Source: Eledone cirrhosa (taxonomy: Eukaryota). Taken from it: a stretch of 64,000 nt of DNA. The translations under genes were made by a program, and so were the position numbers. The DNA is taken from positions 41,168,001-41,232,000 of the forward strand of contig OZ024755.1 of NCBI GenBank assembly GCA_964016885.1. Reading direction: 5' to 3'. The notes beneath the pieces were generated by a model. The model saw only the letters and a program-made list of their open reading frames with translations. It was not told where the DNA came from and ran no database searches. Positions 8,556 through 47,934 of the stretch are shown here, piece after piece. Each line of letters starts with the position of its first letter. Position 1 is the stretch's first letter.

Positions 8556-8766
8556 CTGGCGTCTCTAACTTTAATATTCTCCAAATGGTTTGACTAACAT
8601 TGAAACAGCTGATAGGGAAACTTCACAATAAACGTATTATTACATGGTCGAGTTCCTGATATGACAACACACCTTAGTCTCAACAACACTTAACGCTACT
8701 TAACTTCAATAATATGAAAGCGGGAAGCAGTGCCAAAATATTTCTAACAAATTATTATTATGTTCG
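8556..8766 (+). CDS. Putative host-gene exon: 5'UTR plus first 7 coding nt (ATG TTC G at 8760-8766)
   Basis: Branch-like CTTAAC (8532) and acceptor ttattcttgcag ending 8555; donor G|GTAATA at 8767. In-frame TAA 15 nt upstream of the ATG. The phase-1 end joins exon 35026 to give MFG-TLALFAILSGASG. Confidence 0.6.
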
Positions 8767-9300
8767 GTAATATTTTCTTGGAAACTCTGGCAAGTGCCAA
8801 CGGAAATTCCGAAAGGGTAACACATTTTTTATACGCTCTACAGAATTCCTGTAGGTTGAAGATTTGTCTAGAACATACCATGGAGAATTGTTGTATACCT
8901 AGGAGTAATGAAACGTTATCTCTTATAAAACAATAATTCTTTTGATGTGATGAGAAACGTTGTATAAACACTTACAACTTCCTTCCTTTCCTCACACTCC
9001 TACCCACATCCTCCACCTTAAAACTTACTCCATAGCTTCTTTCGCCAAATATATATATATATATATATATATATATATATATATATATATACACATATAC
9101 ATATGTACATATACACACACACACACACACATATACATATGTACATATACACACACATACACATATATACATATGTACATACACACACACACACACATAT
9201 ATACATATGTACATACACACACACACACACATATATACATATGTACACACACACACACATATATATATATATATATATATATATATATATATATATATAT

Positions 9301-9930
9301 ATAGGAACAAGTATGACCCCGACGGCAGAGCTCAAGCCGTTTCGACGGCTAATTCTGGACTAAATAAGAATTTTTAGCCTGGTAAATAAATAGCCGAACT
9401 TCACAGGGGGAATTCCATATTTGGGAAGATAGTAATTGTCAAAAGGATTGGTCAGAAGTTTGTTGTAAAGACTGATGATTCTATCATGGCATTTGGTGGG
9501 CGGTAGGGGTACCTGAACTTGCCGGTAGAACAAAGAGGGAGTGGGGGAAACCCAGTCAAGCGTTGAAAGTGAAATCTATACAGCAGATTCTAAGGATAGT
9601 GTATAGAAGGTCGAACAAATTGTACTGGAGAAGGGGGGGGTGAAAGAATAGGTAAATCGAAAGAGAGTAAACCAACAAGCCATTATAAAAATGAGGAGAT
9701 AAATAAATAAATAACAATTTCTGGTTACTACTCCATCCCCACAATCATCAAATCTCTCATTGGTATTGCTAAGCTATAGAAAAGTTTAATAGGTGGAGAA
9801 AAATACTAAATACCAGATTGTAGTGAAATAATTGTATAAAGCCATCTTTACAGGGCGTCTAACACCACTGCTATAATTAATAGTAATCAGCCAATGCTAT
9901 CTTACAATGGTCCATCTGGTTCCTTAGCAC
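9301..9930 (-). mobile_element. PLE 3'UTR/pLTR related to 1772-2300, with degenerate HHR at 9316-9411
   Basis: Collinear similarity with 1772-2270; abuts (TA)n. Confidence 0.75.
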
Positions 9931-10087
9931 ATTTCTTTCGTTATATATATATATATATATATATATATATATATATATATATATATATATATATATATAT
10001 ATATATGTTCGGATCTAGCTGTCGCGAAACGGCCGGAGCTCAACCGACGGGGTCCTGACTCTTTTCCTATATATATATATATATATA

Positions 10088-10690
10088 GAAAGTCCGAAAG
10101 TTTATAGTTGATAAGAAAATTAGGATGTTGTTGTAATTCAATCCGGAGCCTTGTAGTTATGTAAGAGGTGTTTCCAGACGTGTGGACAACGTGTGAAGAA
10201 TTCATTTTTCGTGTTTAGGCAATCACTATTGCGTAATCTCTTTAGAATATTTATTCGTTCATCAATACATAGTCCACACGACGGATTTCCCCTTGCGTAT
10301 GGCTTGGACTTGAAGTGATGGCTTTCCATTGAATGAAGTAGTCTATACTTGAGTCCTTGAGGGACCATACGTGACTCACGAGTTTCGTGGATGAACGTCT
10401 GTCGGGGTACCTAAAGGTTGACTGGTGGTTCAGGAAGCCTTCCTTAAATCGGCCCTCCGCCATACCCACATAGGATTTGACCTCCTGTGGTTGATTTGGT
10501 CGGTTGGAAGTGACCACAGCTTCATAAACTTACGGCAAGAGCAACTTGGTGGGGGTGTTGCTCCTAGGGCTGTTGGTGATGTGGGCCTTCATGTTCTTAG
10601 CGCAGGAGTATCCTAGTTTTACTTTGTGTCGGTTAAAGATGGAGCGGTATTTATGACCTATGGTGGACCAGAGCCATACGGACCCACGAA
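10088..10690 (-). pseudogene. Frameshifted Nematis-like PLE linker/EN fragment
   Basis: GHKYRSIFNRHKVKLGYSC, SYVGMAEGRFK..NHQSTF, TKL.SHVWSLK, CGLCIDE, LNTKNEF..CPH across three frames. Confidence 0.85.
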
Positions 10691-12480
10691 AACCATGATG
10701 AACTAAAGAAGATGATCGCACATGCGGTGGGGGCCAGTATAAAATTAACCCTTAAGGAACATATGTTCAAATTTAATCGAAAAACATATGCCCAAGAGGA
10801 GGGAGCAGCCATTGGCGTTAGCATTGCAGGTGACATAGCTAACCTATTCATGGTATGGTGGGACAATAAACTTAAAGAACAATTAGAAGACAGCAACATC
10901 TTAACCCTGATAATGTACTCTCGCTACGTTAATTATATAAACTTCGTAGTAAAAACACCCCACTAGAGAACAGTCAGGAATTAGAGAAAAACACCATGGA
11001 AACCATCCAGCAAATAGCTAACCCCCATCCACCAGAGTATTAGAGTTATTATAGACTACCCAAGCAAACACCCCAACCATCGATTACCTGTACTAGACAC
11101 AGAGCTCTGGTTAGAAACCATTAATAACAAAATACAAATCCTCCATTCCCATTATGCCAAACCCATGACTTCCAAATAACTGATCCACCGAAACTCAGCT
11201 GTTTCGGATCACACCAAAATCAACATACTGATTACGGATTTAGTACGGGTGATGAGGAACGTGTCCCGCATGTGCAACCCCAAAGAATTAGAGAGACACA
11301 TACAACACTGCATCCACCGTATGCAGTTCTCTGGCTACAATCAGAGAGATAAAATCAGAGTATATAGAGGAGCCAGAACCAAATGGGAAAAATGATAAAT
11401 AATGATTCAAATGGGACCTGCCCCTTGTATAGGAGCAAATTTTGAAATAGAATAGAAAGAAGTAGGAATAAGGTTAATAAAATAAACTCATGGTATGATA
11501 GCAATAAATACCAGAGTGTAATGTTCATCAATACAACCCCTAGAGGTGAACTAGCTTACACATATAGAAGGGCCCGAGATAAAATTAAACTAAATATTAA
11601 GATAGTGGTACCTCCATAAAAACACTAATTAGTAATACATACCCTTTTCAAAGACCTCCCTGCATAATTAAGAAATGCATAATCTGTAACCTAAGCCCCC
11701 ATATTAACTGTAAAACTAGAAACATAGTATATAGCATAAGATGTATTGAAGGACAATGTAGAAATAAGAATATAATGTACATAGGTGAGACAGCTAGTAG
11801 CATAGGAGAACGACTAAATGAACACTGGCAAGAATTCCAAGATAGGAAAGACTCATCAATACTCCACCAACATGCTAAAATAGAACATAAGGGCAAATTA
11901 GAGAACATAGAAATAAAAATAAAATCTACACACAGAAAAGACGCAATGTTTAGACAAATCACAGAGGCAATAAACATAAATGAACTCCAACCAAAATTAA
12001 ATAGAAAACATGAATGGAATAGCAACAACACAACTTACAATTAAGGACAAAATGAAAACACACACACATAGAACAAACAACTAACTAGTAAGATTTAAAT
12101 AAAGAAATAAATAAACAAATAAAAACACATACAGACACATGCGCAAACTAAGCACACAACACACAGAAAAACAAGATGGCGTAGGACAGAACAAAGGAGA
12201 AGCACAAAACAAAGAAAAGAATCCCTAGTCACTGAAGAGGTCACAGAATGTATGACGAAAGAACTTTGACAATATATAAACAACCATCCTGTTGTGGAAC
12301 CAACCAACCGGAAATTTATAAAATTTATATTTATAAAAATTTATAAATTTATAATAAATTGAAGTGAAAGCAACTGGTGCGTATGTTTCTTATTGGCAAC
12401 ATGACCCTCCTAAAGTATAACAACATCGGTTTCAACACACGTTTTCAGATAAAGAATCTTGCTAAACAAATTCAGAAACG
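10690..12480 (+). pseudogene. Degraded PLE RT-EN, same family as 5721-6832; HHR at 12228-12270
   Basis: YAQEEGAAIG..IANLFM, SRYVNY (degenerate YVDD), RLPVLD, HYAKPM, EN YIGET; stops and frameshifts; 3'UTR collinear with 6378-6832. Confidence 0.88.
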
Positions 12481-46251: not shown

Positions 46252-46580
46252 TGCCCCAATAATACTAATATTGATAATCTAACCAACATCAGCATTTAGC
46301 GATAATCACTTTCTGTGCCTGAGGTATCTGTCAGGTTGCCAGTCCAGCAGTTCTAAAGGAAGTGCTCGAACTGATTCAAAAAATGAGGAAGTGAATTACC
46401 GCCAAAAAAAAACACACATATATATATATATGTTAGTTTCAGAAAATCCCGTTAAGGGTGAAAGCAGCGATTCTTTGCTTAAACTTTAATCTGTTATTAT
46501 AATAAATATATATATATATATATATATATATATATATATATATATATATATATATATATATATATATATATATATATATA

Positions 46581-46748
46581 CAGTGAAATTCCGTTATAAA
46601 GAAATTCACGAGGTATAAAAAAATTCGTGTAACGAAAAATTCTTTATAACGAGGTCAACCGAAACAAATCGAGCGTTTGTTTGTTATTACTTCAGGGATT
46701 GAAAAAAAATTCGTTATAATGATATTTGTTATAACAGAATTTTACCTG
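46581..46748. mobile_element. Tc1/mariner-superfamily (pogo/Tigger-like) MITE
   Basis: TA|CAGTGAAATTCCGTTATAA ... TTATAACAGAATTTTACCTG|TA imperfect TIRs with internal TTATAAC repeats. Confidence 0.7.
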
Positions 46749-47087
46749 TATATATATATTATTATTATTAAAAGAACGGAGGCCATATTCAGTTGATTCA
46801 GGTTTAGTTAAAACTCTGTTATATATATTTCACTGAGGACTATCAGTTATGATAGCCTGAGCTCCTCAGACGGCAAAACCTATAAAAACAATGAATGTTC
46901 CTAAAAAAAAACCTTTAAGTTTGTAAAAATCCATATAACTTATAAATAATACATTTAAAATGTTATATTGATATTTAATACTTTGTGGTTGTTTCTAATT
47001 AAACGCTGGGATTAAAGAAAGTGTTAGCTAGTAAGGGTTATTTTAAGACACATTTATAATTCCTTACTTGTTTATATTTGTCAACAG

Positions 47088-47229
47088 TCACGCTCCACAA
47101 AGATTCTATAACATTATCTCAAGGACACAAAGGAATTGTACAAATTCTTGAAGCAGGAACGGTTTTACCATTGATTCAAAGTATTTCAGCAGCTGACGCT
47201 AAAAACATCTGTATTACGAGAGGATACTA
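47088..47229 (+). CDS. Host-gene 142-nt exon, N-terminal half of a divergent SRCR-like domain (FTLHKDSITLSQGHKGIVQILEAGTVLPLIQSISAADAKNICITRGY)
   Basis: Acceptor tttatatttgtcaacag, donor GTAAGT at 47230. Open in the phase set by the previous exon. Pattern I.L..G..G.V.I...G...DA..IC...GY resembles SRCR VRL..G..GRVEI..G.WG..C...DA.VVCRQLGY. Confidence 0.75.
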
Positions 47230-47934
47230 GTAAGTTGTTTTGGGAAATATCCAATCAATTTGCTTTACATTGTGTATATGTTATTAGTGTTTGTTTTGTT
47301 TGGTGAGTCTGGAGGAAGTGGTGGTGCTCATGCCTTTCAGAGGCCCTCCGATATTATTGAGATCAATGCCATTGATGTATTTACATTTTTAGCAGCTTCA
47401 CGCCTTTGGGAAAGATATGAGTCCCATAAGAAGTTCGACAGAGATGAGGTTCTAGGCTGGAAGGACTCCGGATAGCAGTTAGTGAAGGGCCTGGTGGCTT
47501 GAGGGATGAGAGAAGGGGAGACGAGTGAGTTGTCAGCGTTTGAGTGGGGGTGGCATGAAACCATTGTTGAAGTGAGAGTATTGGCGGGGAGGGAAGTGTC
47601 AGACATTGTTGAATTGATGGTGTTGGCAGGCAGGAGGTGAAGTGAGGGTGTTGGCGAGGAGGAGGGGCTAAGACTTTGTTGAAGTGATGGTGATGGCGGG
47701 GAGGAGGGGGCATCTGTCGGTTTCGACGATGAGTGTCCCAGTTGTTCGTTCAACGGAACAGCCTACTCATGACATAAACATGAAAGTGACTACGCGTTCC
47801 ACAGACACGTGTACCCTAAACCCAATACTCACAGATATTCAGCAGGACACACTATGTGACAAGACCGGCCCAGTTACAGTCCATCCGATGGGCTTCCAAA
47901 CAATTTCCATCAACCCAGCTTCCCTCAGAGTTTA

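What the first reader, a model, noticed from the sequence alone, without database searches (positions are those of the whole stretch)
8556..47235. Hidden host gene: three small exons over 38 kb encode a signal peptide plus a divergent SRCR-like domain
Seen: canonical splice signals at 8556-8766, 35026-35073 and 47088-47229 with compatible phases (1, 1-1, 1-2). They give MFGTLALFAILSGASG|QLFTLHKDSITLSQGHKGIVQILEAGTVLPLIQSISAADAKNICITRGY, none of which is in the ORF track. Known: SRCR domains begin VRL..G..GRVEI and carry DA.VVCRQLGY. Inference: a lineage-specific secreted or membrane SRCR-like protein lacking the usual WGTVC motif, with the rest of the gene beyond the satellite.
Basis: partly seen in the sequence, partly recalled or inferred. 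Interest (0 to 1): 0.75.

Follow-up and report, generated by a model that had tools for sequence, protein, structure and literature searches.

The report
Octopus secreted nine-domain scavenger-receptor gene
The window holds the first exons of a 189-kb octopus-type gene for a nine-domain scavenger-receptor (SRCR) protein that is predicted to be secreted, is already listed in databases for other octopuses, and likely binds microbes or mucus components; it is an ordinary gene apart from an unusually divergent first domain.

Summary
Exons 35026-35073 and 47088-47229 encode the signal peptide and first half of domain 1 of a protein with nine tandem SRCR domains. The predicted partner exon lies just past a 67.6-kb satellite; the gene ends about 148 kb beyond the window. 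The spliced frame is open for 823 residues and matches Octopus sinensis XP_029637050.1 (934 aa, automatically named 'DMBT1-like') at 560 of 823 positions without a gap. The orthologous start exon (MLSIC) is at 22828-22840, with a second copy at 28836-28848; 8556-8766 (MFG) has no support as a coding exon. Domain 1 escapes Pfam, but its orthologue has an SRCR fold in the ESM Atlas (TM 0.65-0.74) and six conserved cysteines in a non-standard pattern. No membrane, CUB or ZP domain was found, so this is not true DMBT1. Only domain 9 keeps the full SALSA cation site. As assembled, one domain-9 exon is a base short (error or real: untested). No RNA was available. Ordinary gene; function inferred.

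The parts
22828..22840 (+). Coding end of the start exon, copy 1 (MLSI + first base of Cys codon; donor gtaagt); nearest acceptor gives an exon from 22810
   Evidence: identical to orthologue N-termini
28836..28848 (+). Coding end of the start exon, copy 2, in a near-identical duplicated block (21295-23306 vs 27304-29276)
35026..35073 (+). Exon for the hydrophobic core and end of the predicted signal peptide (48 nt, phase 1-1)
   Evidence: 12 of 16 identical to O. sinensis; hydropathy
47088..47229 (+). N-half exon of divergent SRCR domain 1 (142 nt, phase 1-2)
   Evidence: (35 of 47 identical)
47230..64000 (+). Start of the 69,888-nt intron that splits domain 1; from 48688 a 40-bp satellite that continues to extended coordinate 116274 (about 1690 copies). 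The other 18 coding exons lie beyond the window (extended coordinate = C15 position minus 41,168,000): domain-1 C-half 117118-117278; domains 2-8 starting at 117839, 121062, 122932, 126209, 130523, 135208, 137538, 139735, 141533, 154927, 159693, 161094, 171171, 176346; domain 9 at 183884-184024 (one base short as assembled) and 185412-185581; last exon 211643-211668
8556..8766 (+).

Best explanation
These exons begin a 21-coding-exon, 189-kb gene for a roughly 930-residue protein of nine tandem SRCR domains that is predicted to be secreted and likely acts as a soluble multivalent scavenger or agglutinin of microbial or mucus polymers. Shown: exon chain, open frame to domain 8, orthology, eight Pfam-detectable SRCR domains in the orthologue, no transmembrane segment. 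Predicted: signal peptide (hydropathy only) and SRCR fold of domain 1 (language-model structure of the orthologue). Inferred: domain 9, the only one with all eight residues of the SALSA/DMBT1 cation sites, would bind ligands through calcium; domains 1-4 lack that site and are net basic (+2 to +6) while domains 5-9 are acidic, so they would bind polyanions or protein partners without calcium, or act as spacers. Gene identity about 0.95; the scavenger/agglutinin role about 0.55.
For: Pfam SRCR search of the own genome found 13 half-domain hits on the + strand of C15 just downstream. Exons chain with alternating phases and no stop for 821-823 codons. 560 of 823 residues identical to O. sinensis XP_029637050.1, ungapped; pieces also in O. 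vulgaris, O. bimaculoides and Argonauta. Pfam finds 8 SRCR stretches and no other family above cut-off except related SRCR models. Domain 1 of the orthologue: 10 of 10 listed structural neighbours are SRCR-containing proteins, TM 0.65-0.74 over 92-99 residues; feature score 0.91. Domain 1 scores above 1000 of 1000, 999 of 1000 and 1000 of 1000 shuffles (window, O. sinensis, O. bimaculoides) against a profile of domains 2-9 of the same gene. Domain 3 lacks both cysteines of one canonical pair in both species. Cation ligands listed in PMC7043408 (passages) mapped by spacing: 8 of 8 in O. sinensis domain 9, same motifs in the window genome's domain 9 with one Asp-to-Glu change. DMBT1-like proteins are reported in O. 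vulgaris skin mucus (PMC11431876 passages).
Against: No transcript or protein evidence for this gene was seen; the orthologues are annotation models. Domain 1 has no Pfam hit, only 2-6 bits against a generic SRCR profile (12, 58 and 72 of 1000 shuffles as good), hhalign probability 1.4%, P 0.038, and the Atlas marks its aligned-part family scores as under the bar. The domain-9 N-half exon is frameshifted as assembled, giving a stop at codon 893, 102 nt before the last junction. The mucus paper's main text does not hold the two accessions searched, and this genome has several other multi-SRCR genes, so its DMBT1-like protein may be a paralogue. Ligand mapping is by spacing, not by structural superposition. 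The Argonauta model starts inside domain 3.
Confidence: 0.7

Rival explanations
1. Same gene and protein, but its job is structural or developmental (matrix or mucus scaffold, or a ligand for a host protein) rather than microbe binding.
For: Eight of nine domains lack the complete cation site; SRCR folds also serve specific protein partners such as CD6-CD166 on the same surface without calcium (PMC7043408 passage); one-to-one conservation of domain order across octopods is unlike a fast-expanding immune array (inference).
Against: Domain 9 keeps all cation ligands in both species; SRCR-only secreted architecture resembles soluble pattern-binding proteins (recalled: SSC5D, CD5L, SALSA).
Confidence: 0.3
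2. In this species the gene is broken or truncated: the one-base deficit in the domain-9 exon is real, removing the only canonical domain and probably triggering decay of the mRNA.
For: Exon is 141 nt and shifts the frame; no second copy of the domain-9 C-half exon in the assembly.
Against: The deficit sits in a short run of T; a nearby duplicated block differs from its twin only by six single-base indels in 1.4 kb, a pattern typical of long-read consensus error (recalled); the exon after the shift is still 82% identical to the orthologue and the last exon is kept.
Confidence: 0.12
3. The reader's exon 8556-8766 is a genuine alternative first coding exon spliced straight to 35026, giving an MFG-starting signal peptide.
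For: Good-looking acceptor, usable donor, compatible phase; one match in the genome.
Against: Weak donor among 76 comparable candidates; four upstream ATGs in the exon; the orthologous MLSIC exon lies in between.
Confidence: 0.06

Closest known systems
[quoted passage not shown]
   Same: Orthologue: same start (MLSIC), same nine domains in the same order, 68% identity without gaps over 823 residues, same six domain-1 cysteines.
   Different: Window genome has a duplicated start exon, a duplicated frameshifted domain-7 exon, a 67.6-kb satellite inside domain 1 and a frameshift in domain 9 as assembled. Several of the database models are fragments.
Vertebrate DMBT1/SALSA/gp340
   Same: Secreted tandem-SRCR protein; domain 9 has the cation-site residues described for SALSA SRCR8.
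   Different: DMBT1 has group B (8-cysteine) domains (PMC10855680 passage) that are 88-100% alike, plus CUB and ZP domains (recalled; seen in the Pfam column of P0014). Here domains have 4-7 cysteines, are highly diverged from each other and there is no CUB or ZP.
Group A SRCR domains (MARCO, Mac-2BP, LOXL2-4; invertebrate SRCR-only proteins)
   Same: Six-cysteine pattern in domains 2, 4-7 and 9; PDB relatives CD163, PIT54, CD5L, MARCO, DMBT1 found by sequence.
   Different: Domain 1 has six cysteines in shifted places and no WGxxC; domain 3 has four; no collagen, enzyme or membrane part.

Membership tests
SRCR superfamily (whole protein) | One or more domains matching Pfam PF00530 | tested here: met
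   Orthologue: 8 stretches, 524 bits; 15 of 15 tested half-exons of domains 2-9 hit PF00530, 10 of them above cut-off on their own (the frameshifted domain-9 N-half was not given)
SRCR superfamily (domain 1) | Match to PF00530 by sequence | tested here: not met
   No hit for either half or for P0002; only 8 stretches in the full orthologue
SRCR superfamily (domain 1) | SRCR fold | tested here: met
   Atlas model of the O. sinensis domain, TM 0.65-0.74 to SRCR proteins, 10 of 10 rows (predicted models on both sides). Own AlphaFold run failed (pLDDT 34)
Group A SRCR domain | Six cysteines at the canonical positions | tested here: inconclusive
   Met for domains 2, 4-7, 9; domain 3 has 4, domain 8 has 7; domain 1 has 6 but by alignment lacks the WGxxC and the 'DDVxC' cysteines and has two extra (numbering recalled)
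DMBT1/SALSA | Group B domains with eight cysteines | tested here: not met
   4-7 cysteines per domain; definition from PMC10855680
DMBT1/SALSA | CUB and ZP domains after the SRCR array (recalled) | tested here: not met
   Pfam on the orthologue finds only SRCR-type families above cut-off; the gene ends about 7 residues after domain 9
DMBT1/SALSA | Dual cation-binding site | tested here: inconclusive
   All ligands present in domain 9 only; partial in 4-8; essentially absent in 1-3 (mapped by spacing)
DMBT1/SALSA | Calcium-dependent binding or agglutination of bacteria | not testable with these tools
   Needs recombinant protein
Membrane scavenger receptors (CD163-like) | Transmembrane helix and cytoplasmic tail | tested here: not met
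   Best 19-residue hydropathy window beyond residue 30 is 1.1 in the full orthologue and 1.4 in the window protein to domain 8

The most novel reading that the evidence does not exclude
An octopod-specific, polarised scavenger protein: an N-terminal SRCR domain that has lost the WGxxC strand cysteine and the calcium loop and re-wired two disulfides into a new binding module, heading a basic arm (domains 1-4) that captures polyanions or folds back onto the acidic arm, while a single canonical calcium-binding domain 9 does classical pattern recognition.
Probability: 0.2. Interest if true: 0.45.

Novelty: new member of a known kind. Interest (0 to 1): 0.2.

Why it matters
Modestly. It corrects the annotation of an octopod multi-SRCR protein (nine domains, not the eight Pfam sees; not a true DMBT1), gives a natural series from a canonical to a barely recognisable SRCR domain within one chain, and is a candidate for the 'DMBT1-like' skin-mucus biomarker of octopus health. 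It also shows a single domain split by a 70-kb intron that is almost all satellite.

Tried and rejected
Word-based homologue searches with the 47-kb exon alone or with P0002 found nothing among longer proteins, although full orthologues exist; the Atlas gave no usable hit for the 46-residue half. AlphaFold on a 3-sequence alignment gave pLDDT 34: not used, no fold search run, second job unused. No RNA holder listed; the three runs behave as genomic DNA of one sample. Laying them on 27100-28920 showed both variants of the one substitution near the start exon (T in two runs, C in one), but the junction of the duplication lies in high-copy repeats, so true tandem duplication versus two haplotypes placed in a row stays open. 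The domain-9 frameshift was not tested with reads. No paralogue of domain 1 in the own genome (one E 1.9 hit ignored). P0003 (E 4e-4) is an unrelated repetitive match and was dropped. One of two acceptors tried was set one base off and its rows are not used. Six accession numbers of the orthologues occur in no searchable paper; searches (12, 8 and 12 listed) show no study of this gene by title or abstract start; the supplement of PMC11431876 could not be read and may list the accession. No earlier scan findings.
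Full report
Observation. The three stretches have the AG/GT ends and phases stated. The window is C15:41168001-41232000 of a 3.0-Gb genome; below, 'extended' coordinates continue the window numbering downstream.

Is the 47-kb exon coding? An exhaustive HMMER search with its 46 residues gave 2 hits; the best (E 7e-10, 67%) is a 68-residue Octopus bimaculoides protein that carries a signal-peptide-like start directly in front of the matching part.

The rest of the gene. A Pfam SRCR search of the own genome (150 of 193 candidates scored) showed 13 half-domain hits on the + strand between extended 130.5 and 185.6 kb. 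The 40-bp satellite runs from 48688 to 116274. Scanning for spliceable exons gave the predicted phase-2 partner at 117118-117278, starting with T, and the halves of further domains. Every domain is split in the same way, an N-half of phase 1-2 ending at the GY/GF motif and a C-half of phase 2-1. Exon starts: 117839, 121062, 122932, 126209, 130523, 135208, 137538, 139735, 141533, 154927, 159693, 161094, 171171, 176346, 183884, 185412. Chained, the frame is open through domain 8. Profiles built from these halves found no further SRCR halves in about 414 kb held, apart from a duplicate of one exon. A short last exon at 211643 ends like the orthologues. Span from start codon to stop: 188,841 nt; the intron inside domain 1 is 69,888 nt.

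Orthologues. A search with the nine C-halves returned 239 proteins (120 listed), among them O. vulgaris (82% to the first query) and Argonauta (71%); the O. vulgaris cluster holds the full-length O. sinensis XP_029637050.1, 934 aa, and O. bimaculoides pieces. The spliced window protein matches it at 560 of 823 positions with no gap; per domain exon 54-79%. These are annotation models; I saw no experimental data for them.

Correction of exon 1. All three Octopus species begin MLSIC. The two copies lie in a duplicated block (21295-23306 vs 27304-29276; 26160-27307 vs 29271-30417) with 3 differences in 1.6 kb outside microsatellites. Contigs of three DNA runs of one sample show both variants at the diagnostic base but cannot bridge the junction, so real duplication versus haplotypes is open. 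8556-8766 matches only itself in the genome and holds five ATGs; a non-coding role is not excluded.

Is domain 1 an SRCR domain? By sequence barely: no Pfam hit; 2-6 bits against 250 unrelated SRCR domains, with 12, 58 and 72 of 1000 shuffles as good; hhalign P 0.038. Against a profile of domains 2-9 of this gene it beats all but 0-1 of 1000 shuffles. The ESM Atlas holds the O. sinensis protein; for residues 20-121 the top feature hits are SRCR clusters (0.91) and all 10 listed structural neighbours are SRCR-containing proteins, TM 0.65-0.74 (predicted models, family scores under the tool's bar). With the shared exon split this makes an SRCR origin very likely. My AlphaFold run failed (pLDDT 34). 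Cysteines 62, 88, 94, 102, 109 and 119 are kept in all four species compared; by alignment the WGxxC and 'DDVxC' cysteines are gone and two are new, which implies re-paired disulfides (inference).

How it likely works. The only strongly hydrophobic stretch is the N-terminus, so the protein is predicted to be secreted. PMC7043408 (abstract and passages) shows that SALSA/DMBT1 domains bind ligands through a dual cation site and finds no role for the VEVLxxxxW peptide that older work cited in PMC4361686 (passages) favoured. Mapping eight listed acidic/amide ligands by spacing, only domain 9 has them all; domains 1-3 have essentially none. Net charge is +2 to +6 in domains 1-4 and -1 to -9 in domains 5-9, in both species where computed. 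Most likely: a soluble multivalent scavenger in mucus or haemolymph, with calcium-dependent capture by domain 9 and calcium-independent contacts by the basic arm (about 0.55); a structural or host-partner role is the main rival (0.3). PMC11431876 (passages) reports DMBT1-like proteins in O. vulgaris skin mucus, higher in wild animals; the accession was not visible and the supplement could not be read, so it may be a paralogue.

Caveat. As assembled, the domain-9 N-half exon is 141 nt and shifts the frame, with a stop at codon 893. It lies in a short T-run, a nearby duplicated block differs only by single-base indels, and downstream exons stay conserved, so assembly error is likelier (about 0.88), but it was not tested with reads.

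Membership and novelty. It belongs to the SRCR superfamily with group A-type domains; it is not DMBT1, lacking eight-cysteine domains (definition in PMC10855680, passages), CUB and ZP. Orthologues are already in RefSeq/UniProt; no paper on them surfaced in searches. Verdict: real gene, ordinary kind, reader right on family and wrong on exon 1. Interest 0.2.

Noticed in passing
window 36710-43165: A palindrome with 3200-nt arms (1 mismatch) and a 56-nt spacer; each arm carries a 589-codon open frame with reverse-transcriptase-like (YRDD) and GIY-YIG-like motifs (motifs recalled; Pfam gave nothing significant), i.e. a head-to-head Penelope-like retroelement, either very recent or a fold-back assembly artefact.
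   Followed up: partly
window 21295-30417: Block A-X-B followed by A'-B' (X, 2.85 kb, missing from the second copy), duplicating the start exon; real tandem duplication or uncollapsed haplotypes.
   Followed up: partly
L011-L012; extended 159924-164429 vs 164630-169091: 4.5-kb tandem duplication holding a second copy of the domain-7 C-half exon (165801-165963) that is one base short; copies differ mainly by single-base indels.
   Followed up: partly
window 48688-64000 and on to extended 116274: 67.6-kb array of a 40-bp unit, 95% matches, inside an intron of a conserved gene; further large satellites (30-bp, 12 kb; 20-bp, 4 kb) lie downstream of the gene at extended 234-252 kb.
   Followed up: no
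G000 C11:40.69-40.75 Mb, C14:13.95-14.04 Mb, C27:22.02-22.05 Mb, C1:204.2-204.4 Mb, C3:311.9 Mb, C7:29.1 Mb, C12:44.05 Mb: Other multi-SRCR genes: the C11 array has whole domains in single exons, the others mostly half-domain exons like this gene.
   Followed up: no
L007:8932-9067 and L008:2209-2360 (domain 3): Both cysteines of one canonical pair are replaced in the window genome and in O. sinensis, a concerted disulfide loss across two exons.
   Followed up: yes
window 16401-17204 (-), 3042-3554 (-), 5682-6377, 10637-12044: Retroelement fragments (RVT_1 hit for 16401-17201; others look Penelope-like by eye).
   Followed up: no
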